DNA of 64,000 bases from Marsupella aquatica (lineage: Eukaryota; Plantae; Marchantiophyta): the NCBI GenBank assembly GCA_973895155.1, contig OZ316892.1, forward strand, positions 1,367,223-1,431,222. The letters run 5' to 3'. Positions 4,030-54,999 of this stretch are shown here, piece after piece (positions within the stretch are counted from its first letter, which is position 1; each line of letters opens with the position of its first letter). The notes beneath the pieces were generated by a model, which saw nothing but the letters and a program-made list of their open reading frames with translations, was not told the origin of the DNA and made no database searches. The position numbers and the translations under genes are program-made.

Positions 4030-4192
4030 GCGTAATAATTTAGTTTTTATTTAACTCAAAAAAGCCTATATAAATGTAAGGTGATTATTATTAACTAAAA
4101 TCATTACATCAAAAATAAATTGCAAATAAATTTTCGATTCTACCAAAGCAATGCAATTCGCTTATATTTTGAATGATAGAACTATAGATTTT

Positions 4193-4954
4193 CTATGGCT
4201 TTGCCGGCAATTTCGTTTTTATATAATCATTTTGTTCTTTTAAACCTGATGCGTCTTTTTTATCTGCAAGATTTTTTAATTCATTATTAATAAAAGTATC
4301 TGTTCTACCACGAAATTGTTTGGGAATAGCTTCGCGAAATTTTATAATCATATCCACACCTTTTTCAACATTCGGCGTGTTCTTTACCCTGCCTAAAAAA
4401 TTGGCGAAAGCAGGCAGCATATTAAATTTAGCACCATTCACAGGCATTTCATCAAACTTAGTCGCCAATGAATCAAACTTATTTTCATCGGTATAGGCAA
4501 ACAATGCATCTTTCAAAGCTCCTTTTGCAGGCTTTGTTATAAGCACCTTCGCTTGTGCTTCAGCCGCCGCATCATCAATAGGAGCCAGAGCTTCCAATGC
4601 ATTACCAGCAACGGTATATGAGGAATCAGAAACTGCTTTTATAAACAAAGCCTTGTAAGCAACATTTTTATACATGCCCAGCATTTTTATAGCCTGTGCT
4701 TTTACTGTTCTGCGGGTATCGTTTGTAGCAACTTTTACCAGCGATTTTTCTATAGCAGTTTTTACTGTATCATTATCCATATTAAATTGGTCAAGCGCAA
4801 ATGATCTTATGCGCCATGATTTATCACTCAGCGTTTTTTGTAAAAAATCTAAAGCCTTTGTATTGGTTTGTTCTTTCGAGGCAATAACTACTGCTTCTCT
4901 CCTGTCAACATAAAGGCCTGCATGATCGTATTGATAAATAAATTCTTCCAAAGT
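4193..4954 (-). CDS. C-terminal HEAT-repeat portion of a bacterial protein, probably a Bacteroidetes M1-family aminopeptidase; truncated at the bacterial/plant junction
   Basis: Helical HEAT-like repeats (LSDKSWRIRSFAL, AVSDSSYTVAGNALEAL). The ORF has no real start and stops matching bacterial composition at ~4955. Confidence 0.6.
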   Translation of the reverse strand, partial: TLEEFIYQYDHAGLYVDRREAVVIASKEQTNTKALDFLQKTLSDKSWRIRSFALDQFNMDNDTVKTAIEKSLVKVATNDTRRTVKAQAIKMLGMYKNVAYKALFIKAVSDSSYTVAGNALEALAPIDDAAAEAQAKVLITKPAKGALKDALFAYTDENKFDSLATKFDEMPVNGAKFNMLPAFANFLGRVKNTPNVEKGVDMIIKFREAIPKQFRGRTDTFINNELKNLADKKDASGLKEQNDYIKTKLPAKP

Positions 4955-5179
4955 AATGTGAAAAAGTTTTTCGTCGGAACTCGGTTTCGATTTCGGATTT
5001 CAGCGTTGGCTTGCTAGGTTGGTGGGCTAAGTGGCGGTGACAAGTTTCAAGTTTTTTGGAAAGTTGCGAAAAACGACATTTTTTCGTGATTTGGATTTGA
5101 GTCAACGCAAAGGAAGGAAGGAAAAAGCATATAGGGAGCAGCACAGCAATAGCACGTGGAGAACGTTGGGAGGACAACG

Positions 5180-23002: not shown

Positions 23003-25053
23003 TGTCGCGCCGCTAACCTGGGCCTTAAATTCAGTTTAGTGCCATGGTGCGACCTCGACCACCAGTAAGGGTGAGGGTTCGGGCAAGGAGGTGTGTAGTG
23101 ACCTCTATTAGCCCTAAGTCGGGCTAAGTCGATATACTTACTGGTATAACACCTGCGTAATTCGTACTAGTCATAGGTATATTTGTTTTCCACCGCTGGA
23201 ATATTCCCTCAGTTAGTGACTCGGACTAACTCCCGGCTTGGGGCCTTTCAAGCCATCGACACGACAGGACCTTGTGACATACAATGAGTGGCAATCCCTA
23301 CCATTAGTCCGCACCCGGTACGTCCCTTAAAATGGCGCCTTTACCCAGACAAAGCATACACACAACACCACTTACTTGCGGAAACATAAGGGGGAAAAGA
23401 CTACATTTACTCAGCGAAGCATCAGTTTACATGGTTGACTCGACTTCAAAGGGGGTCAGCAGGCCCAACGGCAGTCGATGCCCAGTCTCTACGAGGCCCT
23501 GCCTTGCACTTGCCCAGCAAGCTCGACTCTGGCTCTCACTCCTTGGTGCGCTCTGACCCTGCTCAGGCCGGGACTCCCCGTGCCTCACCTTTCTTGTCCT
23601 GAGATAACTAAGCCTTCTCCCCCTTCCATAGCGGAAGGGGAAGCCTAAATACTATAATCGCGAAGGAGAGCCGGAGGATACTGCCTTCCGAGATACTACC
23701 TACCGACTAACTACCTACTGACTACTGGCCGCGCCGCACTGACTGGTTGACCGTCGACGACAAGGTGCCGATCGGGATGGCAGCGGCCAAGCCTACTGAC
23801 AAACTCTAGTCCGTTGATGGACTCCATCCTACGTTGGCTGATCCTAACTGATCCGGCCCTAATTCTTCTTACTGCCGCTAATCGGCGCCTAATGACAGTC
23901 ATTCTATCGTTACGCCTAACCAAAAGATGCCGCTGACTTAACCGCCTCGCGCGGCGCCTGCTTCCATCCTTCGCTAACCACCCCTTACGTGTGTGCAGTG
24001 GTTGGACCAGGGTTGGTCCCCTTGTCGGGAAGAGACCTCGAGCCGCCTTGATCAGAGGTGGGCCCAGGTTTTCCCCGCTGGAGGACGAGCAGGGTAATGC
24101 GGTCCTACAAGGCCTTGTTGTCCCGTACCGCCTCCTCCGCCTCGTTGGCAGCTTCATCGGCCTCGGTTTGGAGCCGCGCTACCTCCAGGTTGAGCTGGTT
24201 AATGGAGTCGCGATGGATCCGGTCCTGCGCCAGCAATTCATCTCGTACAGCGGAGAGACTAGCCACCTGCTGCGATGCCTGCAGGAATTGCTTGTTGAGG
24301 TCGGTCAGGCTGGTAACCCGAGCCGAAGATTCTGAGCGTAATTGAAGCACGGTGTCATCCAGCTTCTTGAGGTCTGCTTGCGCTCTGCTTAACTCCTGGG
24401 TTAGTCCGTCCCTCTGTTCGACGGTGCGGACTAACTCCTCGCGGCGGGTAGTTGTCTCCTCCTCGAGGTGCTCTACCAGCATCTGGAGGCACCCAATCTC
24501 ATTCCCCTTCGCCATGAGTTCTTCTTCCAAGCGGCTTACGATCCGTGGTTGGTGCTCTAACATGAAGAAGGCTGGTTGAAAGTACGCTGAGACTTGTTGT
24601 CCGATGTACGTCGCCAGCTCCCCAGACGTAGTCTGGCTAAACTTCTGTACCAGGTCGTAGGCCATGGTCCCCGGGGCTACTTGGTAGTCCTCCATCCTCT
24701 CGGGTACCGGTGGTTCCTCGGCCGGGGCAACGAGCTCCTCAGTAGTCAGTGCTGGGGAGGGGAAGGTTTCTTCAGGTGGTGGAGGGATTGGGGGTGGCTG
24801 TAATGCGGGTAGCGGAGGCTCGACGGAAGGGGGCATCAGAATTTCCACTAGAGGTGGTGGCGGAGTATTAGTCGGGGCTTCCGACTCGGGGTTTGCCCGA
24901 GGGACGGTAGTCCGCGTGTTCGGGGTTGCCTCCTCTGGGGCGGGGGTGACATTACCCGGGGCTGAGGTGGCCATATTCTTTCCTCTGGCCTCTCGCCGTG
25001 CCTTGTACCAGGCGAGGATATTGGCGATATGACTTCCCAAGTAAGTCTTCCCC
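23003..25053 (-). mobile_element. GC-rich LTR-retroelement fragment, copy A; truncated and fused to the integrase of the DNMT-Gypsy
   Basis: Starts tgtcgcgccgct and aligns by eye with 30063-32100, with scattered substitutions and indels. Confidence 0.8.
24000..25053 (-). pseudogene. 3' part of the retroelement accessory ORF (Pro-rich plus coiled coil), with a premature CAG>TAG stop at 24105
   Basis: Near-identical to the C-terminal half of 31031..32746. Confidence 0.8.
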
Positions 25054-27539
25054 TCCATGAAACTCAGTTCCCTCATCAGTCAACACCTCTGCTGGTGCTC
25101 CAAATGACTGAGTACATGATCCAAAAATGTAGCAGCAACTCCTCCACTGGCTTTATCTGGCAACGCTACTAGCTCAATCCACTTGGAGAAGTGCTCCACC
25201 ATGACCAAAACATACCAATTATAACATTGGGTAAGAGGTAATGGACCAGCAAAATCCAAACTCCAACGATATCCCAAACCCATGATCGACAACGGGTGCA
25301 ACTGGGGAGTGGGAGCATTAAATGATGCTCTCACTCTATCACATACCACACACTTAGCTATCAACTGCTGGACATGAGTGTGCATACCACGCCACCAATA
25401 CTGTGTCTACAGCAAGCTGTAAGTGCGCTTCACACCAAAGTGACCTAACTCCTCGTGCGCATGTTGCACCAAATGTACGAGTTCGTTGTGATGGTTTTGG
25501 TACCCCAACACCCTACCATCATGCAGTACTCTCAGAAGATGGTTTCCCTCCCATCGAAACCTCTTGGCTCTTTGTAGAACCCTGTCACGTTCCTTGGTAT
25601 CAACAATGCCAACAATAGAACCACTGTGCAGATATTTCAACACTCTCACATCATTGTGAATATCTTGCTATCCAAAAGTTACCTCACCAACATCCACATC
25701 TGAAGACTCATCATCCACTCCATCCAATGAGGTAGAGTCCACAGATCCACTATATGCTGGCACCCAACAAAGAAAGGCAGATGCATGCCATCCTGGCACC
25801 ATCTTCTTATCTGACTCATCATGCCATCTGGCTCTAGTCTCATCCTGCTGACTGGTACATGGGTTGCGGCTCAACCCATCTGCATCCAAGTTCACCTTTC
25901 CAGGTCTATGTAAAAACTGGAAATCATACTCCTACAACAACAATGCCCATCGTGCAAGCTTCCCAATAAGCTTGTCAGACTCCATCAACCACTTGAGAGG
26001 CTGATGATCAATGATCAAAGTGAAAGGATTACCAAACAAGTGATAGCGGAAGTGTGCCATAGCCCACACTGCTGCCAAACACTCTCCCTCATAAGAGCTA
26101 TACTTAGCCTCTGCTGAATTGTTTGATCTACTGGCATATGCCACAACAAACTCATGCCCTTCATCATCTTTCTGAGTCAGCACTCCTCCAAGTCCTACTC
26201 CACTCCAATCAGTGTGTAGCTGAAATGGTCTGCTTGAAATGGGTCTTCTCAAAATAGGGGATGATGCCAACCTTTTCTTCAACTCCTGAAAGGCATGCTC
26301 CTGGTCATCACCCCAAGTCCATTCTTGATCCAACTTAGTGAGTATGGTTAAAGGTTTAGCAAGCTGGCTAAATCCTTTAACATACCTCCTGTAGTAGCTC
26401 GCCAATCCCAAGAATGCACGAACTCTGCTCACATCAGTAGGACAAGGAATCTGTGTAATGGCCTCCACTTTAGTCTGCTGTACACCCAATCCCCCTGGGT
26501 ATATAGTGTGACCCAAATACTCAATCTGGTCTTAGAAGAACTTACACTTGCCAGGATGGAGCTTCAACCCATGTGCTCTCAATCTCTCCAACACAATCTG
26601 CAAATGCTGTTGATGTTCTTCCACACTAGAAGAATAGACCAAAATATCATCAATATAACATCTGACAAAATCCAAACCTGCAAGGATTCGATCCATGACT
26701 CTCTGGAACTCAACTGGTGCATTCTTAAACCCAAATGGTAAGAACAACCACTGATACAAATGATCTTTGTCATAAGAATCAATCCCCCAGAATATTGCCT
26801 AATTGGAAGCTGATGGTACCCTACCCTCAGATCCAATGAACTAAAAACCTTTGCATGCCCCATAGCATCAAAGATCTCCTCAGGTGTGGGCATGGCATAT
26901 CGATCAGATTTTATCTGGTGATTAATAGGTATGTAATCACCACACATGCGCCTATCTATGTAATTGCCATGCACATCTTTCTTGGCTGGCATCATTGTGG
27001 CAGATGCATACTCCCCATATGAAATCTCCACCAATCCAACCTCCAACAAATCTTGAGTTCTACTTTGAATCAGAGCTCTCTCCATGTCACTATAATGGTA
27101 TGGTCTATGAAAGATTGGTGCATCACTAGCCAATTCAATCTGAATACCAAGGCCCTTCAATGTCCCAAAATCCTTCATGCTAAATGCAAAACAATTCCAG
27201 TAACTCTTCAGGAATTGATGCATGTGACATCTCTTCTCCCTTGTCAGCTTAGGACCAATCTGTGGCTCCCAACTCTCCACCAAATCCCTAATATCTTTTT
27301 GTAGGGTAGAAGAGATAGTTGATGATTGCTATTTAGCAGTAGATTGAGCAATCCCTTCCTGCTCAACAATCTGTCCAGCCTTGGCCAATCTGGCCATAGG
27401 TCCATGGACTGTCTGCTTGCCCCCAGCTGTGGTCGTCACTATCTCAATGGATTGCAAGCTCACTAATGGATGATCAGTAACACTAGCAGAGCGCATCCGC
27501 AACTGTTCAACTACTCCCAAGCTGACAATCCAAGTTAAG

Positions 27540-28460
27540 CAATTCAAATCCATTGCTTGACCAAGGACTTGGCAGCGTGAATTCTCTGATACCAAGGCAA
27601 CTACAATGGTGCCTGTCAAAAATCCCATAGCACGCTCCCTCTCATCAGCAATAGGTTCTACTAACTGCTGGAGAGCTGTGTCCCACACAAGTCTAGGCCA
27701 CCTGCTCTGAATGCATATGAAGTAGAGTGGCTTACAAGAGTGGGTAATGCACGACATGGGCGCCCAACTGCATTGACCACTGCCAATGGAGGTCTATCAG
27801 GTTGGGTCACACCCTGTGCACGACACCCTAGATCCAAAATATCATCCACCACTAAGGCTGGTGAGTGTGGAATGCTGTCAAATGCGCGCTTCAGCACCTC
27901 ACATGGGATCAAATTAGTCCACCACAAGCGTGGACGATGTGCACGAGAACCCATACGTGCAACATCCAATAACACAGTAGGTCCAATCCAAGACCTCACC
28001 TAGTGAACACTGGCAACAATCCTAACAATGGCACATTCTCCAAATGTATGCTGGAGACTATCTGATGTAGCTAGAGATGACATAGCACCCGTAACATCTC
28101 CCAAAACAATGTAGAGCGTGGATCATGAAGTCCATACCCAACACCAACTCTAGATTGGCCTTGACATGGCCAACCAGCAATCACCAAATCAATGGGGCCA
28201 ACACGATGTAAATGATCCGCCCCCAACAATGAAATATCAGCAGGTAGTGCATGTTGATAACCACAAACAGCATGCACTGGCAGCACCTGTGGATATCTAT
28301 CCACCAACATAGCCACATGCCGCAATGAGATCCTCCGTGCTGTCTCATCTATCTCCACATACAAATAGTGACGCACATGAATTCTTGCCTGAAGAATAGC
28401 AGCCAATCTAGTGCTAATCCCACCAAATAGATCCAACAAGCAAATACCCTCCGGTGGATA
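27540..28460 (-). pseudogene. DNA (cytosine-5)-methyltransferase domain within the Gypsy pol
   Basis: Motif I LDLFGG, II VEID, IV GWPCQG (catalytic PC), VI LENV (28043-28032, in frame past a TAG), VIII RAHRPRLWW, IX ERERAMGF, X LGQAMD, all in canonical order. Confidence 0.9.
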
Positions 28461-28516
28461 CTGCCAAGCAATAGGAGTGGTATCCAATGGTGAAAGAGTC
28501 ACCGGTCCATCTGCAA

Positions 28517-28872
28517 GGGGTATGGCATGCGTGACAGTAAACAGGAAACAAGTTTATTGGTACTAGGAAAATTTTTCCTGTTACGAGCAAAAAGTTACTG
28601 TTACCAGGAAAAATAACCATGTCAAAATAGTTTCTAAAAAGTCTCATTTTCCAAAAAAATCTAAGTTACAACATTTTTTGGCTAGCTTTGGGCGCTAGCA
28701 AAACAAATAAAATTTTGAAAAAAAAAAAGTTTTTTTTTCCCAAAAAAAAATTTCAAAAAAATATATCAAAAAAATTTCAAAAAAATTTCAAAAAAAATTA
28801 CCACTCATTTTCCTGTTACTAGTTTCTGTTTTCTGTTACTGTTTGCTGTTTCCTGTCGTTTGTAAATACCCC
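28517..28872. mobile_element. AT-rich MITE inserted in the PR-DNMT linker
   Basis: Termini GGGGTAT...ATACCCC with imperfect ~35-bp TIRs; flanking duplication tctgcaa / tctacaa; removing it restores the reading frame. Confidence 0.85.
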
Positions 28873-30062
28873 TCTACAAGAGACCGCTCTGCTCGTGACT
28901 ATGGTGTAAAAGCATGACACCATGCTTCATGTATCAATCGTGCTGCTGCCTGTGGCAAGGCCTGTCCAGTGCCCCACACTGGTGGCACCACACTGCCAAC
29001 AGGTAATCCCCGCATGATCTGTTCCTCATGTGACTCCTCCAATGGTGAAACATCTGTTGCATGCGCATTATCCTCAATCAAATCATCAGGTCCAGTAATT
29101 ACACCACTGAATGCTGCCAAAGACAAGAGTGTGGATTTAGGGCCTCCCACAGGTCCACTAAATCTCACTAGCAACCTGCTCAACCGAGCATCTCTTGACT
29201 GCCAATCAGGTCTATATGACATTGATTCATGATTCCAAAAATCAAGAATAAATCCCATGGGGTAGAGCACCGCACATCCCACCAACACATCATATGACTT
29301 TGCCTTAGTCAAAATAGCTTGCGCCTGTATCTGTGAGCTATCTATAGCATGACCTTCCTGAATCCTCAAATCAAGTGGTCTCCTGGTGATATGCTGTGTA
29401 GGTGTAGGTCCCCCCAATGAAGTTTGAATGGGAAAGGGACAATCCTCCAAATCCTCTGGACGCAATCCCAATCCACGTATGACAAACTTCCCCAACATCA
29501 AGGGCTGAGCACCAGTATCCAGTAACACTCTCTCTGGCTGGTATACTGTTCCAGATGGCCCAACTAATGGAAAGATACCACTCCAATTATCCAATGACAC
29601 AACACTAGGTTTAAACCTAGTCCTCTCAAATGCAGGGCGTGTTGGTAAATCCACCAACCTTGTTGTTGCTGCATGCCATGTCTCACTAGTAGCAATAGGT
29701 GGCATGGTCTTCACTACTTCAACATTGCAAGCTACTTTTGCATGGGAAGCAACCACTGGAGTGTCCTCATAGAGTGTAGCTATCAATCTGAACACTTTTG
29801 CAGGAACAACTCCCAAGTTTAGCATGTTTGTCACTAAAAATAATGGGGTGTGTACTATAGTAGTAGCCGCCCCCAGCAGGGTACCTATCATCCTTGCTGC
29901 ATCACTACCTGATTCTGCCAACTTACCCACGCTAGGGTTTGTTCAAACCGGGTTCATGGAGGCAATCTGAACTGTCTCTAACAATGTAAAAGACTGAGGA
30001 AGCTTTGTCTGCCAACGTGCATCCCCCCTCTGTGGATCTAGCTCCACTACTACTCCTTGGGG

Positions 30063-32825
30063 TGTCGCGCCGCTAACCTGGGCCTTAAATCCAGTTTAGT
30101 GCCATGGTGAGACCTCGACCACCAGTAAGGGTGAGGGTTCGGGCAAGGAGGTGTGTAGTGACCTCAATTAGCCCTAAGTCGGGCTAAGTCGATATACTTA
30201 CCGGTATGACACCTGAATAATTCGTACTAGTCATAGGTATATTTGTTTTCCACCGCTGGAATATTCCCTCAGTTAGCGACTCGGACTAACTCCCGGCTTG
30301 GGGCCTTTCAAGCCATCGACATGACAGGACCTTGTGACATACAATGAGTGGCAATCCCTACCATTAGTCCGCACCCGGTACGTCCCTTAAAATGGCGCCT
30401 TTACCCAGACAAAGCATACACACAACACCAGTTACTTGCAGAAACATTAGGGGGACAAGACTACATTTACTCAGCGAAGCATCAGTTTACATGGTTGACT
30501 CGACTTCAAAGGGGGTCAGCAGGCCCAACGGCAGTCGATGCCCAGTCTCTACGAGGCCTTGCCTCGCACTTGCCCAGCAAGCTCGACTCTGGCTCTCACT
30601 CCTTGGTGCACTCTGACCCTGCTCAGGCCAGGACTCCCCGTGCCTCACCTTCCCTCTGCTGAGATAACTAAGCCTTCTCCCGCTTTCCATAGCGGAAGGG
30701 GAAGCCTAAATACTACAATCGCGGAGGAGAACCGGAGGATCCTACCTTCCGGGGTACTACCTATTGACTACTGGCCGCGCCGCACTGACTGGTTGACCGT
30801 CGACGACAAGGTGCTGACCGGGATGGCAGCGGCCAATCCTACTGACAAATTCTAGTCCGTTGATGGACTCCATCCTACGTTGGCTAATCCTAACTAATCC
30901 GGCCCTAATTCTTCTTATTGCCGCTAATCGGCGCCTAATTACAGTCATTCTGTCGTTACGCCTAACCAAAAGATGTCGCTGACTTAACTGCCTCGCGCGG
31001 CGCCTGCTTCCACCCTTCGCTAACTACCCCTTACGTGTGTGCAGTGGTTGGACCAGGGCTGGTCCCCTTGTCGGGACGAGACCTCGAGCCGCCTTGATCA
31101 GAGGTGAGCCCAGGTTTTCCCCGTTGGAGGACGAGCAGGGTAATGCGGTCCTGCAAGGCCTTGTTGTCCCGTACCGCCTCCTCCGCCTCATTTGCAGCTT
31201 CATCAGCCTCGGTCGGGAGCCGCGCTACCTCCAGATTGAGCTGGTCGATGGAGTCGCGATGGATCTGGTCCTGCGCTAGCAATTTATCTCGTTCGGCGGA
31301 GAGACTAGCCACCTGCTGTGCTGCCTGCAGGAGTTGCTTGTTGAGGTCGGTCAGGCTGGTAATCCGAGCCGAAGATTCTGAGCGTAATTGAAGCACGGTG
31401 TCGTCCAGCTTCTTGAGTTCAACCTGCGCTCCGCTTAACTCGTGGGTTAGTCCGTCCCTCTGTTCAACAGTGCGGACTAACTCCTCGTGGCGGGTAGTTG
31501 TCTCCTCCTCGAGGTGCTCTACCAGCATCTGGAGGCGCCCGATCTCATTCCCCTTCGCCATGAGTTCTTCTTCCAAGCGGCTTACGATCCGTGGTTGGTG
31601 CTCTAACATGAAGAAGGCTGGTTGAAAGTACACCGCGACTTGTTGTCCGATGTATGTAGCCAGCTCCCCAGACATAGTCTGGCTAAACTTCTGGACCAGG
31701 TCATAGGCCATGGTCCCCGGGGCTACTTGGTAGTCCTCCATCCTCTCGGGTACCGGTGGCTCCTCGGGTGGAGCAACGATCTCCTCTGTAGTCAGCGCTG
31801 GGGAGGGGAAGATATCTTCAGGTGGTGGAGGGATTGGGGGTGGTTGTACTGCGGGTAGTGGAGGCTCAACAGAAGGGGGCGGCGGAATTTCCACATGAGG
31901 AGGTGGCGGAGTATTAGTCGGGGCTTCCGGCTCGGGGTTTGCCCAAGGGACGGTAGTCCGTGTGCTCGGGGTTGCCCCCTCCGGGGTGGGGGTGACATTA
32001 GCCGGGGCTGAGGTGGCCATATTCTTTCCTCTGGCCTCCCGCCGTGCCTTGTACCAGGCGAGGATAATGGCGATATGACTTCCTAAGTAAGTCTTCCCCC
32101 CAATAGCCATACCACCCTGAGCCCGCTTCAGCTCCCCCGAGAATCTTCGGTAGAAGAATTGGGCCCAGTTTCGTCGCTTGTACTGTTGCACCTGCACGAT
32201 CGTGTAGAGGGAAATCTTGGATCGTGGCTCAATCATGTGTAGGGTAGTCCGTATGAAGTTAAGCCGCTCCATACAGGTTAAGTTGGTGCACGCCCCCTGC
32301 TTGTATCCGTTGTCCGTCTTACCCTCGGGTTTGAAGTGCCGCGGCGTATACTCCTTATCCCAAATTCGGATTTCCACCGGCACCGGCCCGGTTGGTAGGC
32401 AGAAGATTTGTGTTAACCGATGCTCCGTGAGTGATAAGGCCTGCCCCGAAACCTTGGTGGTCGACGCGTCAGTGTCAAAATTGGAGATGAACTCACAAAT
32501 CTCCTTCGGCCCGGTGGCGCACGGCCTCCATAGCAAGTGGGCGAACCGCTCCAACTGATGCTCCTTGAGATAGTCCGCATGTTTGAGTTTCTTGATCGCG
32601 ATCCAGACTACTTCGGGGATGCGGATTACCTGTAATAAGTTGGACTTCGGGTTATCCGGGGGCCGTCGGGTCTGGTTGGTCGGGGGGTTTGCCGGGGCAG
32701 GTGCAGGCGCGGCGTTGGTCCGCGTTGTTGATTCGGGGGCCATCATAGTCCTTGGCCGCTTACGAGGACGTTGTCTGGGGGGGAAAATGTGGTTCTTGAG
32801 GAAGCACCGGGCCTATGGCTGCTAG
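30063..32825 (-). mobile_element. GC-rich LTR-retroelement fragment, copy B, inserted into the DNMT-Gypsy coding region
   Basis: Same tgtcgcgccgct terminus as 23003; the DNMT-Gypsy reading frame runs right up to 30062. Confidence 0.8.
31031..32746 (-). CDS. Retroelement accessory protein (571 aa): N-terminal plant-transposon-type domain, Pro-rich linker, long coiled coil
   Basis: Intact ORF. LERFAHLLW..EICEFISNF..LSLTEHRLTQIFCLP resembles env-position accessory ORFs of plant Gypsy elements; second diverged copy at 24000-25053. Confidence 0.7.
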   Translation of the reverse strand: MMAPESTTRTNAAPAPAPANPPTNQTRRPPDNPKSNLLQVIRIPEVVWIAIKKLKHADYLKEHQLERFAHLLWRPCATGPKEICEFISNFDTDASTTKVSGQALSLTEHRLTQIFCLPTGPVPVEIRIWDKEYTPRHFKPEGKTDNGYKQGACTNLTCMERLNFIRTTLHMIEPRSKISLYTIVQVQQYKRRNWAQFFYRRFSGELKRAQGGMAIGGKTYLGSHIAIILAWYKARREARGKNMATSAPANVTPTPEGATPSTRTTVPWANPEPEAPTNTPPPPHVEIPPPPSVEPPLPAVQPPPIPPPPEDIFPSPALTTEEIVAPPEEPPVPERMEDYQVAPGTMAYDLVQKFSQTMSGELATYIGQQVAVYFQPAFFMLEHQPRIVSRLEEELMAKGNEIGRLQMLVEHLEEETTTRHEELVRTVEQRDGLTHELSGAQVELKKLDDTVLQLRSESSARITSLTDLNKQLLQAAQQVASLSAERDKLLAQDQIHRDSIDQLNLEVARLPTEADEAANEAEEAVRDNKALQDRITLLVLQRGKPGLTSDQGGSRSRPDKGTSPGPTTAHT

Positions 32826-37063: not shown

Positions 37064-40000
37064 TGTAGATAGGCAGTAATTCCAAAGTCATGAAGAAAAC
37101 CGGAAAATTTTTAAATTTTTGAAGTAGTTAAACTATATTTGCTGATAACTCGAGTAAACTAAACTCTGCCGAAGATTAAGAGTTTAAGAGTTGAAGAGTT
37201 AAAGTGTTTAAGAGTTTACGGGTTTACGAGTAAACCCTACTTTAATAGTTTAAGAGTTTAAGAGTTGAAGAGTTGAAGTGTTTAATAGTTTAAGAGTTTA
37301 AGGGTTTACGAGTAAACCCTACTTTAAGACTTTACGACTTTAAGAGTTGCGACTTGCGAACTGGCGAGCCCCGCGATTGTGACAGGCTACGGCTAACTCC
37401 AACGGGACTTTGCAACAAAACGAGGAGCAGGCCTTGAAGGGGGAGGAATCCAGAACATAGGCGCTCACTCCTGACTTCTCTTCCGCTGCATCTTTCATCG
37501 CTCTTGACTCCAAACAATTCTTCGCGTAGCTCAGTGAGCAGAATTTGAGCTATGGCTGACTTGAACGCTGATGCACAGTATCGTGTTCAAACTCTGGCAA
37601 TTCCTAAGAGTGTGGTCGCTCGAATTCCTTTGGCGCCCGACAATTGTGAAAATTTGAGAACATCGTTACAGCAGCTCGGATTGGAACATCTACTCGCAAT
37701 CCCTTGGAATGTGGAGCTCGACTCTTATTTACAGGATTTTGTGAGAGGATCACTGATTGCCCCTGAATTTCGACAAACCATTCGAGCTCGGCCAAGTTTA
37801 TGGACAGTTGAGCAAGTAGCTCATGCCTTCCGCTGCCCCTTAGATGGAGAAGGATTATATTCAAAGAAAAAAGATTTGTCCACTCCTTACTTTTCAGGGA
37901 TTCGCCATCCTACCAATGGCTGGAATGTGACACAATGTACCTATCCGGATTTGAGGATTCTTTTAGAATTTCTAGTGCCCATTCTCCATCCGAAGAGACC
38001 AACTATCTGCCCTGTGGCATTGGCGAATACTATCGTAGCTTCTCACAGTGGAGCTATTCAAGTAAATTGGGCGTTGTTACTTTTCAATGTGATGCACGAT
38101 CAGGTGAGAAGTATGAAGGCAGGCAGACCTACTTGTCTACAAGTCTATCTATCTCAGCTGTATCAAGCACATGACTGTTTACATCCGGAGGAGAAAACAG
38201 AAAGGGGATTACTTCTGATCGAGTTGGACATTGAGGAAGAAATTAGTGTAGCAGAATCAGAACAGGACATTCTGCTGAATTCCACTGATCAGGATGTTAA
38301 TATGGAGGATGTCTCGATAGATGGTTCGGAATTTCCCCCTGAACACAACATGGAGGTCATTTTATACTCTCCAAGAGAAATCAGTGGAGCAGATCAACTT
38401 GAAGCTGAAGGAGACGAGATTTTTCCTGAGCAACAAGAAGTCGTTGTTGAACCAACTATTACTGCCATACGAGGAGTCACCATGCCCCCTTTTTCGAAAG
38501 CAGAGTCAAATCAGCAGCTTATTGATAAGTTAATCTCTCTCTTCGGTTGCAGTGATGTTGAACTCTACGATGTTGTCTGTGATTTGAGATCCGAGGCAGT
38601 TAGCTTATCCTCTCCATTTCCAGATCAGCTAACCCCTGTCAGGACCGCTTCTCCCATTGAGAGGTCAGCACCAGAAGAATTTGTTGCTCTCACTCCTACT
38701 GTCCCACAGAATCTACCTCCAGAGCCAAGTGAACCTGTCTCAAGGATAGGAAACACAAGTTGTGTTGCAATTGTAACTGACCTACTGGAATTGCTTCAGT
38801 GTGAACCTGAGGAGATAATCTCTGTGGTTAGTGACTTAATTCCGAAGTACACAGAATTCAAAGGCCCTTCCAACCCGGGTGACTGCATTTATAGTCCAGA
38901 TTCCAATTATGAGCCAACCGAGGGACCTATTTATACCCAACCACAGTATGAACATCCTTCTGTTAGACAGGATCTTCCTGAGGATTCTGATCCACCCTCT
39001 GATTTTGATTCCATCCGATCTTATGACAACTCTGTCGAGTCGTCACCAAGGCAAGGATTTGAGGATGTTGACACTACCTTAAGATCTGATCCAAATTTAG
39101 TGGCAGTTGTCACCTCCTCTACTCAAACACCCCGGTATTCTGTCATTGAGAAAAGATATACACGACATCCAGAGTCTCAAGTGCAGAGGTACGTGGAGAC
39201 TTGTAAGATAATGCAGGCCAACAGACCCCCAATTGGAGAGTTTTGGAGATACTACTACCTTAAGAAGACTGAGGCCAGTTACATATTTGACCTCAGAAGT
39301 TTCGGAACTTCAAGAGTGGAGATGGCTCAATTTGATGAGTTCTGGGCTGACTCAATCTACTTCCGACCCATCCTTGCTATGATGCTACTTCAAGGGGATG
39401 TAGAAGTAGAAGATCCAGATTTGGTTTTGGCCTATTTCGGGAATTTTGCAGCTTACGCTCTGGACTTTGTGATTTCTTTTCTCATGCAGAGTAAGAAATC
39501 CACTTCTCACCAGAACTCTTACATCCCACGAGAGCCGAAGGTTGTCCTTGTTTCCACCAGTTCCCTAGCTGAGAAACAGAGGATCTGGAATAATGTCACT
39601 ACTCAGACCCTGGCTCATTTCAACCGATATTTTAAGGATGTCAGATGGAGACTTCGACCCTTCTATTCCAGGATGATGAATAGTGATGAGTTTCTGCATC
39701 ACTATCCCCAAGTATATGCTGCCACCTGCAACAACTATGATGTGATCGGGATGTACAGAGAAGCTCTTCGTATAGATTCCTATTATTTGATGAAGAGAAT
39801 GCCTTTGATGTATCCTGAGAGACAACTGAGGTGCCTACCATACTCCAGAGGATCCCCACGCCAAGCTAAGCTGATAGAGGTTACCCAGAACTGAATTGTT
39901 ACCCTTGTGGAGTTACTAGAACCAGAGGACATCCGACAGCAAGCTTGAAGAAGTCTCTAAGTGTTCTTAGTTAGTTTTTAGAGTAGTGCATCTTATCTGA

Positions 40001-41180
40001 TTTTTAGAAATGTGTTCTAGAGCTTTAGAAGCTGTCATACTTCTTTAGGCTGTAGTCTGTACCTAGGAAACCCTGCTGGAAAAATTTCAGAGTTTTCTGA
40101 ACCAGGAGTAGAAAGTTAAAAATAGTTGAATCTACTCAATTTTTAGTATACCGAAATTAAGAGTTTAAGAGTTTAAGTTTTTACGTTTTTAAGAGTTTAA
40201 GTTTTTACGTTTTTAAGAGTTTAAGTTTTTACGTTTTTAAGAGTTTAAGTTTTTAAGAGTTTAAGAGTTCATACTTACCCATTTTTTCCGGCTTTCCACT
40301 TACTGAATCGCCATTTTAAAATTTTGAGGGGTATGAAGAGGCATGTCTCTTCGACCCTGTGACCTCTTATTCTGTAGTTCATCACTATTTATACCTCTTT
40401 CCCTAGTGTAGAGAGATGGTTAAGTTTTGCAGTTTTGCCTCTCCCTTGTGTTAAACTAGTTGATCATGAATCTATGAGTTCGAGATCAGGTTTAACATTT
40501 GGAGAGACTTACCTCCTTCTTGTATTTTGGAACCCAAATACTTGAAGTAAAACCTCAGTTATGAATCTCGTGAATTATAATGTCAGATTCCGCTTTGGTG
40601 ACACATTGTAATCTCACAAGTTCTTAGAGTTAACTCATTGAGTTTAAGTTGCATTGGAAATGATGTTTTCACCTTCATGTTGCTTAGTACCATCTAAATG
40701 CTGAAGTATTTATCCTTTTAGATCTTGACTAAGTATCACTTAGGAAGAAAGGTCAAGACATGTTGCCGGCATTTTAAAAGGATACTCTAGTATGCAGTTT
40801 AGATCTGAAAAGCCGTGTGGATTTGGATTCCCTTAAAGTCATTCCATTATTACTTATGTCTAAGGAGTAACCTTGGTCTATTCCAGACTCCCTTAAGCAT
40901 ACTCTGAGAGATTTTTCCTTGTGTTTTGTTAATTGCAATCTTTTGCTTAATTGAAGGTTATCTGATGTTGAGTTATCATCAAAAACTACTCACCGCTGTG
41001 GAGCGATCTTCAAAGTACCTGATTAAAGTAGTCAAGATTGATTACTATGTGTGACACAAGAGCTTAAAGCTTTGTTTTTAGTTTATTACATCAAACCAAC
41101 CCCATCTTGTTCTTAAAGGGAACGAATACCGAGTTTAGAGACTTTAAAATGTGATTTTTGGTTCTCTATGGCAAACTACA
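37064..41180 (+). repeat. 4117-bp LTR, copy 1 (solo-LTR-like, flanked by TGAAC TSD)
   Basis: TGTAG...CTACA termini; tgaac at 37059-37063 and 41181-41185; near-identical to 50060-54176. Confidence 0.92.
37552..39894 (+). CDS. 780-aa accessory protein encoded inside the LTR (copy 1)
   Basis: Intact ORF; N-terminal domain LQQLGLEHLLAIPW...NGWNVTQC...LEFLVPILHP...VNWA, acidic/Pro-rich middle, aromatic-rich helical C-terminal domain. Confidence 0.85.
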   Translation: MADLNADAQYRVQTLAIPKSVVARIPLAPDNCENLRTSLQQLGLEHLLAIPWNVELDSYLQDFVRGSLIAPEFRQTIRARPSLWTVEQVAHAFRCPLDGEGLYSKKKDLSTPYFSGIRHPTNGWNVTQCTYPDLRILLEFLVPILHPKRPTICPVALANTIVASHSGAIQVNWALLLFNVMHDQVRSMKAGRPTCLQVYLSQLYQAHDCLHPEEKTERGLLLIELDIEEEISVAESEQDILLNSTDQDVNMEDVSIDGSEFPPEHNMEVILYSPREISGADQLEAEGDEIFPEQQEVVVEPTITAIRGVTMPPFSKAESNQQLIDKLISLFGCSDVELYDVVCDLRSEAVSLSSPFPDQLTPVRTASPIERSAPEEFVALTPTVPQNLPPEPSEPVSRIGNTSCVAIVTDLLELLQCEPEEIISVVSDLIPKYTEFKGPSNPGDCIYSPDSNYEPTEGPIYTQPQYEHPSVRQDLPEDSDPPSDFDSIRSYDNSVESSPRQGFEDVDTTLRSDPNLVAVVTSSTQTPRYSVIEKRYTRHPESQVQRYVETCKIMQANRPPIGEFWRYYYLKKTEASYIFDLRSFGTSRVEMAQFDEFWADSIYFRPILAMMLLQGDVEVEDPDLVLAYFGNFAAYALDFVISFLMQSKKSTSHQNSYIPREPKVVLVSTSSLAEKQRIWNNVTTQTLAHFNRYFKDVRWRLRPFYSRMMNSDEFLHHYPQVYAATCNNYDVIGMYREALRIDSYYLMKRMPLMYPERQLRCLPYSRGSPRQAKLIEVTQN

Positions 41181-42104
41181 TGAACCTTAGCTTCCCATTC
41201 TTCTTTCTCACCGTGAACCACCGATTTGAGTACGGAGCGTTTGATCTCTCAAGGATTTTGGCATCTAACTTCTCCTTGAGTAACTCCACCAATTTAGGCA
41301 TCAGTGCTCGTGGCACAGGAATTGGCTTAAGGTCCCAAGGAACATGTGGAACAGTGAAGATTACCATTGGTGTGATCTCCCTTGGATCAGCACATCCAAT
41401 CTCTCCAATGGAAAAGGAAAAGGCCTTTTCATGTTTGATGATCATCTCCTTGAAGGCTCTTCTCTCTTCCTCTAGTAAACCCTTATCACCAATCTTTAAT
41501 TTGAGCAACGTCTCCTCAGTGAATTTATGCCCAATCTTAGTACGATCTCTAAGACTTGGCTCCTCCTTTGCCCGCCTCAATATTTCCTTAGCCTCAGATG
41601 GCAAGGGAACTGCTGCAGGTCGCACCTTCTTGTCCACTGTTTTGTACTTTGTGTGTACTTCTGCAAAGCGCTCAATGTAACCATACACATCCCTTTCCAC
41701 CTCCACTTCTCCATTTTCTTCCTCAATGTCTCCAATAATCTCTCGAAGAGAGGGTGGTAATTCCCTTTCCTCGAGTACTCCTTCTATTCTCGCTTCAACC
41801 TTCAACACTCCTAATGTGAACAAATCTTTTTCTTTCTTTTCCAACATCTTCTGAGCTCGCCTCTTCACACCACCTTTATGAAAATAGCTCACTTCACTAG
41901 TCCTACTCACACCAACAAAAGAGGAATGAACCTCCATAGACGAGACTAAAGGCTTGGCGTCCTGCCTGCTCGTTTCTCTTAGCGGGACGCCTAGTCGAAA
42001 CCCTTCATACTCTGATCGGACCTGTACTCCTCCACTGTTCTTAATTCCCGATGATCTCTTGTACTACCTGGCCAAAGTGTGGGAAATTGAATCTTCTTCA
42101 AGTC
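41181..42104. repeat. 924-bp duplicate of the host-Gypsy flank (same as 54177-55100)
   Basis: Identical translations (41176..41937 = 54172..54933); identity ends at tcttcaagtc. Confidence 0.92.
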
Positions 42105-43129: not shown

Positions 43130-43901
43130 AAGAGGACAACAGAGGAGCGGATTTCCCCAAATTACAATCTTGATTTCAACTTTGAATAAGCAATTTGGTG
43201 AAATAATTGAAATGCCTCCAATCAGGTCTTTAGGCACTTTGAGAGTAAGAAATTTGCATAATCGGTATGTTCAAACATGGGTACTGTCCCTAAGAGGACG
43301 AAGGGGTGTTCATTGGTTATCTATTACCTGGTGGGAAGGAGGCATTTTGCATCTGGTTATTTTAAAGTTAAATGGTAGAATTACAGGAGAAGAGTATGTT
43401 ATCATTTCTATACAAGAATTAGCTAGATCCTTGCTTCAAAGGCAAACTAGGAGACACAGATAACATTAGTTAGGCCAAGAAATTTGTTAAGTACACCTAC
43501 TCTCCTAAAAATGGGCGCTGCCGAGAACTGAAGGGACGGCATTACGAGTAAGCCTTTACGTTTTTTTTAGAGTTGAAGTTTTACGAGTAAACATACTCGA
43601 GTAAGGGTATAATAGTTGACGACTTACGAGTTGCGAGTTGACGACTTACGAGTTGAAGGGCCGCGATGAACAGGCGCGCCACTTCAACACTTGACCACTC
43701 GCTGCGACTGTTGGGGCGTACACCCCCTGAGGGTTACGAGAAGAGGCGCCATCAAGGGCCACGACGGTGCGAAAGGGTGCCAGCGGGAGGAACAATGGAA
43801 GAACGTGACCCCTCCATGCAAACTTAGACTCCCAAAGGAAACCAGAGTCAGTCCCAAACCATTAACTCGCTCCTGAAGATTGCCGACTTTCAGGATGAGG
43901 A

Positions 43902-46900
43902 ATGTCTGATAAAGGGAAGCGAAGTTGGAGATTAAGACAAGAAGAAAAAGCAAGATCAGAAGCACCACCAACTCCCCTTAATCCTAGGGGACTATTGCCC
44001 GAATTCCAATCCCCAGATTACCCAACACCGGGAAATGTAGTAGAGCGAGTTACCCTCATCCAACGAAATGAAATAGAAGGAACAGTAGACAAGCCTGCAA
44101 CAAGTCGACCAACAATTTATAAATTACGCTCTAGGGATGTCCAATACATCTCACCTAAGCCTAAGAAGAAAGAAATTGACATAGCCAAACCACTGAGACG
44201 AACACAAAGCTTGGATGAATATGAGGGAACACCTGCGTTTCAGATAATTGGAACAGGAAAAACTACCAATACAAGGCATGAAAGCATAATTGAAGGAGGA
44301 ATTCAGCAAATTGAATCTTTAAAATTTAATTCTGACTCACCTTTACTTCAAAGAACGCCTATTGATGAATCTGTCAGATTAGCAGAGGCACTACCCTCGC
44401 TTGGTTATGGAAGTGCCAGCAGTAGCTTAAGTGCGATAAGCACTCCAAATTCCGTAAATTCAATTTCACCATTAACATCTCAAGGATCAGTCACCAGCAC
44501 TAGCTCACAATCTCTGAGAGCCTATCCTCCAATTAACCCAATTCCGGTTCCTATAAGACGACCTCAAATGGCTCGAAATAATATTCGATACGATACCTTT
44601 AAGGGAACATCTAAGGAGGATGCTGAGACTTTCCTCAAGGAATTTGAAGCTGCAGCCACCTCAAATGGGCAAACCCAGGACGCTGAAAAAGCCACGATTT
44701 TTGGAGGGTTATTAAAAAAGAATGCTCAAAAATGGTATGATCGATTTCCAGATAAGAATGACTGGGGAAAAACCAAGACCGGTTTCTTGGACAAATATAA
44801 GGAGGATGGTGTTGAGGCAAGGGCTTTTGCTAGAATCTCTCAACTAACCATGAAGAAACATGGCTCAGTGAGAAAGTACGCAGATAAATTACTAGATCTA
44901 GTGGATAAATATAATCCCAATACAGCCAAGTCCACCACGAGAGATTGGTTTATTAACGGGCTGCCCTCCCGAATTGCAAGGTATGTAAGACAAGAAGGTG
45001 GTACAACCTTTGAGGAAGCTCAGGAAGCAGCACAAAAATACGTGGACTCAGAAGTTTCTGAGAAGAAAAGAGTAAAAAAAGATTTGAAGAAGGGTAAGAG
45101 GAAGGATAAAAAGAAAAAGAAAAAGAAAAAGTCCTCTTCAAGCTCGGAGTCTGGTGATAGCGACACTACCACTACTGAAGGAACTAGTTCCGACTCGGGC
45201 TCCAGCAGTAGCTCAAGCTCCAGTCCAAGTTCTGACGATGCGGACACCAAGACCAAAAGGATGCAGAAAAGCACGGTACCTCAGAAAGCCAAGACCCTGG
45301 ATAAAATGATGGATTCCTTGACTAGTAAGTTGAATAAACTCTCTGTGAATGCCGCTATATTTAAACCAACTAGGAAACTCCCACCCACCATACGAAATAA
45401 TGTGTGGTGTACACGCTGTAATAACCAAGGACACTATCACCATGAGTGCCCCTCATTGCAACGAGCTGTCAATTATGGAGAAGAGGAAGAGTTATTAGAC
45501 TATGGAGATATCTATGCTGTCCAAGCACCGTTTGCAGGGCAATACTTTCCCCCTACTGCGGGACCGACTTCATGGGCCCAACAAAAATCAGCAGGACCTT
45601 CCTCATTTAATCGGCCTATACCAAGACCACCGATGGGACCTCCTGGAGGCTATCCACCCAGAGGAGCACCAAGAGTGCAAGGAACCTGCTATAATTGTGG
45701 TCAACCAGGGCATTACTCACCAGAATGTCCGTACCCAAAACGAGAAGTAGGGTACACACCAATTTGTGGCAACTGTGGAAAGGAAGGTCATCTCCCTGTT
45801 GAATGCCCAAACCCTCCGAAACCCAAGATGATGGTAAGATTTGCTAAAGAGCCTGTGAAGGAAGCACCCAGACCTGAAGAAGTAAGGATGATATATAGCC
45901 AAGAAAATCGGGAGCAATGCAGTCATGTGACCATAGAAGCAGAAGCTGAGGAGGAAGTGCATAATATTTATACCCAAAGTCTATCAGGCACTATTCCGGA
46001 TGTTGATTTGGAGCACTTAGTACAAGACCATGTTGTGGGAATGCCCAACCTACGGGTCCAAGAACGGGACCGTGTTTTGGAAACTTACGCCACTACCAGA
46101 TCCAAGTCTCATCATGAGAAGAAGCACGGTGAGGATGGTTCTAAGCGGAAGAAATCATCCAAACAGAAGAGCAAAACAAGGATACCGGCAAAGGAAGGTA
46201 TCCCAAAAGAGGATGACCCAGCCTATGACAGGTATGACCCCAAGTACTTCCAGCCCGACATATCTACAGAGGTTAAAACTCAAATACATGAGTTAACCAA
46301 GGATGCACCCCTGCTAGTGGAACGGAAGGAAGTCCCTCCAGAGCTAAAAAAGCCTGAACCCAAGATGACCTTGGTACCAACACTCAAACCAAAGGGGTAT
46401 GATATCGTGGACGTTGTCAAGAGCCAACCTGCCAACATTACGATTGGGGAGCTATTAGAAGACAATCCCACTTATAAAAAGCAGTTAAGAACCTTGCTGA
46501 CAGGAAGGAGGAAAAGAAGGAAACTACCTTCTGTGGAGGCCTTGAGACTAGAATGGGAAGATAAAGGACCTCCGGAAATTGAAGTTCAGATCATGGGGTG
46601 TGTAATACCCGAAGTACCAGTAGACGGAGGATCGAGTGTGAACATCATGACCGAGGAAACAGCATCCAACATTGGCATCCATAAGTTTGAAAAGACCTTA
46701 CAAGTACTACGCATGGCCGATCAATCCAGAGTAGTGCCAGTAGGAAAACTTATTGGGATCGACACAATTATTGGGGGCCTGACTTTCCCCTTAGATTTTG
46801 TAGTTCTCCGACCTGAAGTTCCCTCCTCCTATCCTTTGCTATTAGGGAGACCCTGGTTATATAAGGCCAAGGTCAAGGTTGATTGGCACCAACGACAGAT

Positions 46901-47111
46901 GTCCTTTGGGACACCCCGAGTCACTATCAGTTGGATGGATGAACCACATATGGGCAAAACCCAATCAGATGATGGGTACACTTCTGACTTCTCAGATTCT
47001 ACTCTCCTTATCAAAACTCCCAAGTTTGAATCTCTAGAAGTCGGATATCTTGATATCATGGAGGTCGAGGGTGACACACCAAGTAAAGGGACTCTCCCAC
47101 CAGTCTCCTGA
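43902..47111 (+). CDS. Gypsy Gag-protease (1069 aa): capsid domain, three CCHC zinc knuckles, aspartic protease
   Basis: FKGTSKEDAETFLKEF...WFINGL; CTRCNNQGHYHHEC, CYNCGQPGHYSPEC, CGNCGKEGHLPVEC; VPVDGGSSVNIM...LLGRPWL. Confidence 0.92.
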   Translation: MSDKGKRSWRLRQEEKARSEAPPTPLNPRGLLPEFQSPDYPTPGNVVERVTLIQRNEIEGTVDKPATSRPTIYKLRSRDVQYISPKPKKKEIDIAKPLRRTQSLDEYEGTPAFQIIGTGKTTNTRHESIIEGGIQQIESLKFNSDSPLLQRTPIDESVRLAEALPSLGYGSASSSLSAISTPNSVNSISPLTSQGSVTSTSSQSLRAYPPINPIPVPIRRPQMARNNIRYDTFKGTSKEDAETFLKEFEAAATSNGQTQDAEKATIFGGLLKKNAQKWYDRFPDKNDWGKTKTGFLDKYKEDGVEARAFARISQLTMKKHGSVRKYADKLLDLVDKYNPNTAKSTTRDWFINGLPSRIARYVRQEGGTTFEEAQEAAQKYVDSEVSEKKRVKKDLKKGKRKDKKKKKKKKSSSSSESGDSDTTTTEGTSSDSGSSSSSSSSPSSDDADTKTKRMQKSTVPQKAKTLDKMMDSLTSKLNKLSVNAAIFKPTRKLPPTIRNNVWCTRCNNQGHYHHECPSLQRAVNYGEEEELLDYGDIYAVQAPFAGQYFPPTAGPTSWAQQKSAGPSSFNRPIPRPPMGPPGGYPPRGAPRVQGTCYNCGQPGHYSPECPYPKREVGYTPICGNCGKEGHLPVECPNPPKPKMMVRFAKEPVKEAPRPEEVRMIYSQENREQCSHVTIEAEAEEEVHNIYTQSLSGTIPDVDLEHLVQDHVVGMPNLRVQERDRVLETYATTRSKSHHEKKHGEDGSKRKKSSKQKSKTRIPAKEGIPKEDDPAYDRYDPKYFQPDISTEVKTQIHELTKDAPLLVERKEVPPELKKPEPKMTLVPTLKPKGYDIVDVVKSQPANITIGELLEDNPTYKKQLRTLLTGRRKRRKLPSVEALRLEWEDKGPPEIEVQIMGCVIPEVPVDGGSSVNIMTEETASNIGIHKFEKTLQVLRMADQSRVVPVGKLIGIDTIIGGLTFPLDFVVLRPEVPSSYPLLLGRPWLYKAKVKVDWHQRQMSFGTPRVTISWMDEPHMGKTQSDDGYTSDFSDSTLLIKTPKFESLEVGYLDIMEVEGDTPSKGTLPPVS

Positions 47112-47141
47112 CATGAGGAGAGGGCAGAGGAAGACACTCGG

Positions 47142-54951: not shown

Positions 54952-54999
54952 GGCGTCCTGCCTGCTCGTTTCTCTTAGCGGGACGCCTAGTCGAAACCC
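54952..54999 (-). promoter_or_regulatory. Candidate -1 programmed ribosomal frameshift signal (duplicate at 41956-42003)
   Basis: Slippery heptamer G GGT TTC in the PR frame, 5-nt spacer, stem GGCGTCC/GGACGCC; the -1 frame opens into the RT ORF. Confidence 0.7.

What the first reader, a model, noticed from the sequence alone, without database searches (positions are those of the whole stretch)
25054..30062. Ty3/Gypsy retrotransposon carrying its own DNA cytosine-5 methyltransferase between protease and RT
Seen: C5-MTase motifs I (LDLFGG), II (EID), IV (GWPCQG), VI (ENV), VIII (RxRxWW), IX (ERERAMGF) and X (LGQAMD) lie between the protease (LLDTGA) and RT. The fusion is in frame on both sides. 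Removing the MITE and reading through TAG 28899 gives ..AFTP*SRAERSLVDGPVTLSP..GICLLDLFGG, and TAG 27329 is in frame with the RT ORF at 27283. So the ancestor made one PR-DNMT-RT-RH-INT polyprotein. Known: DNMT-bearing retrotransposons were reported in dinoflagellates and the charophyte Klebsormidium (de Mendoza et al. 2018); I know of no characterised land-plant family. Inference: the enzyme could be packaged in the particle and methylate new cDNA, giving self-silencing or camouflage, or it could alter host methylation. This copy is dead.
Basis: partly seen in the sequence, partly recalled or inferred. Interest (0 to 1): 0.92.

Follow-up and report, generated by a model that had tools for sequence, protein, structure and literature searches.

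The report
Bryophyte retrotransposon with methyltransferase and readthrough
This is a dead, cut-off copy of a jumping-gene family of liverworts and peat mosses that carries its own DNMT3-type DNA methyltransferase, and a conserved stop codon likely makes that enzyme abundant in the element's particle, where it would methylate new copies.

Summary
Window 25054-30062 (minus strand) is a decayed Ty3/Gypsy fragment with the order protease, C5 methyltransferase, RT, RNase H, partial integrase. It is a family, not a one-off capture. Relatives occur in Marchantia, Calypogeia and Sphagnum, and 17 of 79 fetched loci show the full order Gag to integrase. The domain is DNMT3-like and under purifying selection (dN/dS 0.12-0.17).

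A stop sits at this site in 42 of 45 distinct copies. RT follows in frame, and the context fits the UAG-CAR-YYA readthrough signal. So ORF1 is Gag-protease-DNMT, and RT-RH-integrase (ending in a PHD finger in relatives) is likely made by readthrough. Readthrough, enzyme activity and packaging are untested.

The kind is known from Klebsormidium (PMC5890265). My searches found no land-plant description in print, but this scan noted the family before in two moss windows. The readthrough layout and intact Marchantia ORF1 copies are the additions. Verdict: new variant of a known kind, interest 0.62.

The parts
28899..30062 (-). End of the Gag-protease spacer, aspartic protease (LLDTGA 29525-29508) and protease-DNMT linker; stops at 29945 and 28901 are lesions; Gag itself is cut off at 30063
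   Evidence: (63% identity to P0001 over 330 aa; 44% to Marchantia P0005)
28516..28873 (.). AT-rich MITE-like insertion with short inverted ends and a 5-base near-duplication; superfamily not assigned; no second copy in the window or fetched loci
27419..28511 (-). DNMT3-like C5 cytosine methyltransferase domain, motifs I, II, IV, VI, VIII, IX, X; catalytic C, E, R, R codons kept; broken by two frameshifts and two stops
   Evidence: fold of intact relative P0002
27323..27331 (-). Conserved ORF1 stop with readthrough-type context, TAG CAA TCA
   Evidence: consensus from PMC3542737
26532..27328 (-). Reverse transcriptase, in frame after the stop; one frameshift near 26800-26860 and stops
25932..26531 (-). 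RT connection and RNase H
25054..25667 (-). Integrase zinc finger and first part of the core, cut at 25054; the C-terminal PHD finger of relatives is missing here
30063..32812 (-). Not part of the element: TG-starting end and 593-aa ORF of another retroelement that cuts the element on the Gag side
23003..25053 (-). Not part of the element: second, 93.6% identical copy of that neighbour, joined to the cut integrase over a 4-base microhomology (likely a deletion junction)

Best explanation
This is a dead fragment of a bryophyte Ty3/Gypsy retrotransposon family whose first reading frame is Gag-protease-DNMT3, closed by a conserved UAG that is likely read through at low rate to add RT, RNase H and integrase, so the methyltransferase would be made and packaged at Gag level and would likely methylate the new cDNA. 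Shown: domain order, family status, DNMT3-type sequence and predicted fold, purifying selection, the conserved in-frame stop and its context, direct LTRs and an integrase PHD finger in relatives. Inferred: readthrough (about 70%); release of the DNMT by the protease inside the particle; methylation of the element's own cDNA before integration, so that the new copy arrives pre-marked like host heterochromatin (about 55%); PHD-guided choice of chromatin at integration.
For: Family: 47 relatives among 677 candidates; the 21 with an organism name are all bryophytes (14 Marchantia, 4 Calypogeia, 3 Sphagnum). 77 metagenome loci; of 79 loci mapped, 42 show DNMT followed by RT, 17 the whole Gag-zinc knuckle-PR-DNMT-RT-RH-INT order, none RT before DNMT (many are re-assemblies of one insertion). 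DNMT3 type: profile best hits DNMT3A E 3e-27, DRM 1e-14, bacterial 8e-9; AlphaFold model of intact relative P0002 pLDDT 92, best Foldseek hit DNMT3A E 3e-19, TM 0.84 on target. Selection: between lineages DNMT dN/dS 0.12-0.17 against 0.33-0.38 in the linker; catalytic C in 66 and E in 66 of 74 rows. Stop: 56 loci plus the window covered the junction; of 45 distinct copies 30 have TAG, 12 TAA, 1 TGG, 2 gaps; the next most stop-rich column has 6 of 44. Four lineages, about 60% alike in DNA at the junction among the three compared, keep it although the tail before it is 76, 98, 112 or 135 codons, and RT follows in frame. Context: TAG CAA TCA (window), TAG CAA CCA/CTA (L010, L066), TAG TAG CCA (L047, one C>T from a match, inferred), TAG CAA CCC (main group); CARYYA follows 0.33% of TAG/TAA in these loci. 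UAG-CAR-YYA is the type I readthrough consensus (PMC3542737, passages). Natural ORF1 proteins end here: five Marchantia proteins of 1278-1281 aa all 96 residues after motif X, P0001 76 as in the window. Separate RT-RH-INT-PHD proteins start just after it, e.g. P0296 with L047. A related DNMT3 from dinoflagellate DIRS elements methylates CG de novo in yeast (PMC5890265 section 10).
Against: No RNA, ribosome or protein data were seen, so readthrough and expression are untested. The largest lineage has CAA CCC, not a full CARYYA match, and an ATG six bases after the stop. The TAG could instead be a splice acceptor: an in-frame GTGAG lies upstream in the window, the main group and L010. TAA copies are scattered on the copy tree (10 changes, shuffles 10.2), so they are decay and do not show that TAA works. 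No conserved RNA structure follows the stop (z +1.0 to -2.05). KnitGypsy-Dnmt3 showed no activity in yeast, called inconclusive by its authors. dS is near saturation, so dN/dS values are rough. C>T decay in copies is high in CG, CHG and some CHH contexts and cannot separate host from element enzyme. No Marchantia DNA was available to read the stop context there.
Confidence: 0.55

Rival explanations
1. Same two products, but by splicing: the TAG is the acceptor of a retained in-frame intron that starts at GTGAG after the DNMT. Unspliced RNA gives Gag-PR-DNMT, spliced RNA gives the full polyprotein (as recalled for Ogre elements).
For: A GTGAG stands in frame 93-96 bases after the motif X anchor in the window, the main group and L010; candidate introns are 135, 201 and 246 bases. 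Gene models of Marchantia and Sphagnum bridge the stop with predicted introns (P0028, P0046).
Against: Candidate introns are not T-rich (T 0.21-0.29, no higher than flanks). L047 lacks the donor and Marchantia proteins have Ile at that codon. Splicing does not explain CAR-YY after the stop. The predicted introns differ between models. No precise intron-less copy was noticed among the 57 segments.
Confidence: 0.15
2. RT-RH-INT is made by reinitiation or from its own RNA at an ATG just after the stop.
For: ATG lies 2 codons after the stop in the main group and 4 after it in L047; P0295-P0297 begin with Met near there.
Against: No Met between the stop and the conserved WEP in the window, L010 or L066. 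Gene callers start at a Met by design. Keeping the frame and CAA would not be needed.
Confidence: 0.1
3. The DNMT acts in the nucleus on integrated copies or host chromatin, or binds DNA without much catalysis, not on cDNA in the particle.
For: Gag-level synthesis would give far more enzyme than one cDNA needs; the Klebsormidium enzyme was inactive in yeast; the 2018 discussion lists host-side benefits.
Against: Catalytic residues are invariant or nearly so across 45 aligned relatives (C140, E183 of P0002). Fusion to Gag and protease ties it to the particle (established LTR biology). No chromatin-reading domain sits on ORF1 apart from Gag zinc knuckles.
Confidence: 0.2
4. One-off capture of a host DNMT fragment, or an assembly artefact.
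For: The window is a nest of broken elements and its first 5 kb looks bacterial.
Against: The same order in dozens of loci and in annotated proteins of three genera; purifying selection; RT and DNMT trees both group the window with bryophyte members.
Confidence: 0.01

Closest known systems
KnitGypsy-Dnmt3 of Klebsormidium nitens (de Mendoza et al. 2018, PMC5890265; passages of section 9, sections 10 and 11 whole, passages of one supplement; figures not seen)
   Same: Ty3/Gypsy element of a streptophyte with an unrearranged, intronless DNMT3-type domain under purifying selection.
   Different: There the DNMT is in the same ORF as RT and RNase H and the repeats are DIRS-like (Fig. 4 legend). Here a conserved stop separates DNMT from RT, relatives have direct LTRs of about 310-340 bases starting TGTCATG, and hosts are land plants. 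The one K. nitens RT fetched (P0313) lies outside the clade; I could not confirm that it is KnitGypsy-Dnmt3.
Continuous-frame PR-DNMT-RT elements of Closterium and unnamed contigs (P0113, P0201, P0226) and RH-DNMT-INT-PHD elements including Monoraphidium (P0259)
   Same: Homologous DNMT in Gypsy polyproteins.
   Different: No stop between DNMT and RT, or the DNMT sits between RNase H and integrase; they branch apart in the RT trees.
EpiLTRs of Euglena and Chromera (bioRxiv 10.64898/2026.05.21.726589; passages)
   Same: LTR elements with their own C5 methyltransferase and a chromatin reader.
   Different: Their DNMT is sister to DNMT4 and comes with DAM and a chromodomain; the authors call it distinct from streptophyte Gypsy-DNMT3.
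Type I stop-codon readthrough, UAG-CAR-YYA, of tobamoviruses (PMC3542737, passages)
   Same: Same stop and hexamer before an in-frame polymerase.
   Different: Here it lies after a methyltransferase in a retrotransposon. Leaky stops between gag and pol are called rare in LTR elements (PMC3441728, passages). Not tested by experiment here.

Membership tests
Ty3/Gypsy LTR retrotransposon | Order PR-RT-RH-INT | tested here: met
Ty3/Gypsy LTR retrotransposon | Gag and two LTRs | tested here: met
   Missing from the window copy, which is cut on both sides; present in relatives L003, L030, L055, L070 (direct repeats 86-94% identical)
Named plant Gypsy lineage (REXdb: Phygy, Selgy, Tcn1, Chlamyvir) | Placement with labelled reference RTs; chromodomain | not tested
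   No labelled references held. Integrase of relatives ends in a PHD finger. The REXdb paper has no hit for 'Marchantia' or 'methyltransferase' (PMC6317226)
DNMT3-type C5 methyltransferase | Motifs I, IV (PC), VI (ENV), VIII (RxR), IX, X in unrearranged order | tested here: met
DNMT3-type C5 methyltransferase | Closest solved relatives and fold are DNMT3 | tested here: met
   (fold from relative P0002)
DNMT3-type C5 methyltransferase | Phylogenetic nesting with host DNMT3 | not tested
   No host DNMT3 sequences were in the tree
DNMT3-type C5 methyltransferase | De novo methylation of DNA | not testable with these tools
   needs an assay
KnitGypsy-Dnmt3 | DNMT3 in a Gypsy polyprotein | tested here: met
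KnitGypsy-Dnmt3 | DNMT in one ORF with RT and RNase H | tested here: not met
   conserved stop
KnitGypsy-Dnmt3 | DIRS-like repeat structure | tested here: not met
   direct LTR pairs in four relatives
KnitGypsy-Dnmt3 | Common descent of RT and DNMT | tested here: inconclusive
   No verified KnitGypsy sequence; K. nitens P0313 is a distant branch
Type I programmed readthrough | UAG followed by CAR-YYA with the frame kept | tested here: met
   Full match in the window, L010 and L066; one change away in L047; five of six in the main group
Type I programmed readthrough | Measured readthrough | not testable with these tools
   needs a reporter or ribosome profiling

The most novel reading that the evidence does not exclude
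An old streptophyte Gypsy lineage, inherited from algae (Coleochaete branches just outside) into liverworts and mosses, uses a tobamovirus-type leaky UAG to load a de novo DNMT3 into its particle at capsid stoichiometry, methylates its own cDNA before integration and aims the integrase with a PHD finger. Intact ORF1 copies in Marchantia polymorpha, three of the listed family genes on the male V chromosome, would be uncounted active methyltransferases in a model plant.
Probability: 0.4. Interest if true: 0.82.

Novelty: new variant of a known kind. Interest (0 to 1): 0.62.

Why it matters
Why retrotransposons carry DNMTs has been open since 2018, and the one Gypsy enzyme tested gave no signal in yeast. 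Marchantia polymorpha holds at least five annotated ORF1 genes of 1278-1281 aa with intact PCQ and ENV motifs (Mp4g09160, MpVg00370, MpVg00540, Mp5g06330, Mp5g06860) and has CRISPR and met1 mutants that release transposons (bioRxiv 10.1101/363937, passages). That makes self-methylation directly testable in a land plant. The stop layout also says how much enzyme is made: as much as Gag, not as little as RT. These genes are not among the five Marchantia DNMTs listed in PMC5784723 (passages).

Tried and rejected
No host genome is held and no run or read data were obtained, so copy number and expression in the window's own organism are open. Viral contigs gave only 2 distant loci. The first inverted-repeat scan for the insertion was too strict and found nothing; a looser one placed it. 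RNA structure after the stop: none conserved. TAA as an active sub-lineage: rejected. C>T spectrum as a trace of the element's enzyme: uninformative (CG 0.22, CHG 0.25, CHH 0.08 over 34 copies). Trees are quick IQ-TREE searches with SH-aLRT only; the careful RT search did not finish. In one search six distant loci (L074-L079) were left out; eight of 45 copies outside the main group or without the site were left out. The Atlas added only 'C5 methylase, Streptophyta'. Ten paper searches found no description of a land-plant Gypsy-DNMT3, of this readthrough, or of the Marchantia gene ids. Subscription papers are not searched. Figures and sequence supplements of PMC5890265 were not seen, the one held supplement of PMC12344493 had no hit, and bioRxiv supplements are closed. 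Both later papers write 'streptophytes', which could cover land-plant copies in tables I could not see. Harrell et al. 2002 was not held. No complex prediction was run: no binding claim is made.
Full report
Observation. The three minus-strand frames of 25000-30150 hold, in order, a protease motif, C5 methyltransferase motifs I to X, RT, RNase H and the front of an integrase. Pfam confirms PF00145 above its cut-off on ORF 28074-28553, and RT, RNase H and integrase on the downstream pieces. An AT-rich insertion at 28516-28873 interrupts the protease-DNMT linker; with one copy of its 5-base near-duplication it is 363 bases, and both sides are in frame and colinear with the intact relative P0001. 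The copy is dead: frameshifts near 28020 and 27697 in the DNMT, one in RT, one in the integrase, and nine further stops besides the conserved one. Its CpG content is 0.26 of expected.

Surroundings. The element has no Gag or LTR here. At 30063 it is cut by the TG-starting end of another retroelement with a 593-aa ORF; at 25054 it joins a second, 93.6% identical copy of that neighbour over four shared bases. The rest of the window is plant-type Copia, Gypsy and LINE sequence, apart from a bacterial-looking first 5 kb. No host genome is held; a bryophyte host is my inference from relatives.

A family. The DNMT front half found 47 relatives among 677 candidates; all 21 with an organism name are Marchantia, Calypogeia or Sphagnum, many fused to Gag, zinc knuckles and protease. 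The 50% library gave 1048 hits at E 0.001. A scan of metagenome contigs gave 77 loci. Of 79 loci mapped, 17 carry Gag-knuckle-PR-DNMT-RT-RH-INT, 42 have RT after the DNMT, and none has RT before it; many are re-assemblies of the same insertion. Four have direct LTR pairs of about 310-340 bases. Their integrase ends in a PHD finger.

The enzyme. Best solved relatives are DNMT3A and DNMT3B, then DRM, then bacterial enzymes. The model of intact relative P0002 (pLDDT 92) matches DNMT3A at E 3e-19. Between lineages the domain shows dN/dS 0.12-0.17, the linker 0.33-0.38, RT under 0.1; synonymous sites are close to saturation. Catalytic Cys and Glu stand in 66 of 74 rows each. The domain was kept by selection; activity is not shown.

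The stop. Natural proteins end where the window has TAG 27331-27329. Of 77 loci, 56 covered the junction; with the window they collapse to 45 distinct copies. At the aligned codon 30 have TAG, 12 TAA, 1 TGG and 2 gaps (one TAG, L060, may be misaligned); no other column passes 6 of 44. Four lineages keep the stop although the tail before it varies from 76 to 135 codons, and RT follows in frame. The next six bases are CAATCA, CAACCA or CAACTA, TAGCCA, and CAACCC. UAG-CAR-YYA is the type I readthrough consensus (PMC3542737), and follows 0.33% of TAG/TAA in these loci. The lineages are related, so this is conservation, not four independent draws. Stand-alone RT-RH-INT-PHD proteins of 1033-1043 aa begin just behind the site, and a more distant group of ORF1 proteins also ends at one fixed point (P0217, P0219 and kin).

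Rivals for the stop. An in-frame GTGAG upstream in three lineages would let the TAG act as a splice acceptor, but the candidate introns are not T-rich and the donor is absent in L047 and, by protein, in Marchantia. An ATG follows in two lineages but not in the window or L010/L066. TAA copies are scattered decay. I put readthrough at about 0.7, splicing 0.15, reinitiation 0.1. Under readthrough or splicing the DNMT is in the abundant product.

Mechanism. From established LTR biology, ORF1 is made in bulk, assembles the particle and is cut by the protease; the rarer long product brings RT and integrase. The DNMT would thus sit in the particle in many copies beside the new cDNA. I take methylation of that cDNA as the most likely role (overall 0.55), as proposed for DIRS elements in 2018. 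Against it, the Klebsormidium enzyme was silent in yeast.

History. In RT trees the stop-bearing loci form one group (99). The window sits with Calypogeia, Marchantia and the peat-moss-like loci (99), then L047/P0296, then a Coleochaete scutata transcript protein; Klebsormidium and Closterium RTs are further out. The DNMT tree agrees on the bryophyte group (97). This fits descent from a streptophyte alga, but trees are quick, unrooted and thinly sampled.

What is known. Gypsy-DNMT3 was described in K. nitens, in one ORF with RT and with DIRS-like repeats (PMC5890265). A 2025 paper and a 2026 preprint refer to it as streptophyte. Ten searches found no land-plant account and no readthrough report, with the limits given under Tried and rejected. 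This scan noted the family in two moss windows before; a words search with 'readthrough' found nothing. The Ogre splicing comparison is recalled, not from a call.

Verdict. Real, a new variant of a known kind. The window copy is only a fossil; the value lies in the family, its stop layout and its intact Marchantia genes. Interest 0.62.

Noticed in passing
window 1-about 5000: Two bacterial-type genes (M36 peptidase with a Por secretion tail, 205-4050 minus; HEAT-repeat ORF 4193-4999 minus, cut off) abut a plant Copia element near 5000-5040. Joined contigs, chimera or contaminant are more likely than transfer.
   Followed up: partly
window 43899-50030 +: Near-intact Gypsy with a 1070-aa Gag-protease frame, a single TGA (context TGA CAT GAG) and a 972-aa RT-RH-INT frame in phase; lesion or another leaky stop, not tested.
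   Followed up: partly
window 37064-42104 and 50060-55100: 5041-base direct repeats, 99.94% identical, starting TG, each with a 781-aa ORF without Pfam match and a piece of another element's pol: very young large LTRs or a duplication.
   Followed up: no
window 31031-32812 -: 593-aa ORF with a proline-rich middle and coiled-coil end near the 3' end of the neighbouring Gypsy; no convincing Pfam match; unexplained accessory gene.
   Followed up: partly
P0309, P0310: A second DNMT-bearing Gypsy lineage close to a Calypogeia fissa RT has DNMT and RT in one continuous frame: liverworts may hold two such lineages.
   Followed up: partly
P0102-P0288; P0114, P0169, P0193, P0088, P0171, P0183, P0175: The same DNMT sits at other places in other elements: between RNase H and integrase with a PHD (52 proteins, one named Monoraphidium neglectum), in Copia polyproteins, beside a Dam domain, and ahead of the protease.
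   Followed up: partly
Marchantia records: Three of the 15 listed members of the P0005 cluster are on the male V chromosome (MpVg00370, MpVg00540, MpVg00690), a fourth short one too (MpVg00480).
   Followed up: no
P0350: A family RT-RH-INT protein is labelled as from an uncultured cyanobacterium, likely plant or algal DNA in a metagenome bin.
   Followed up: no
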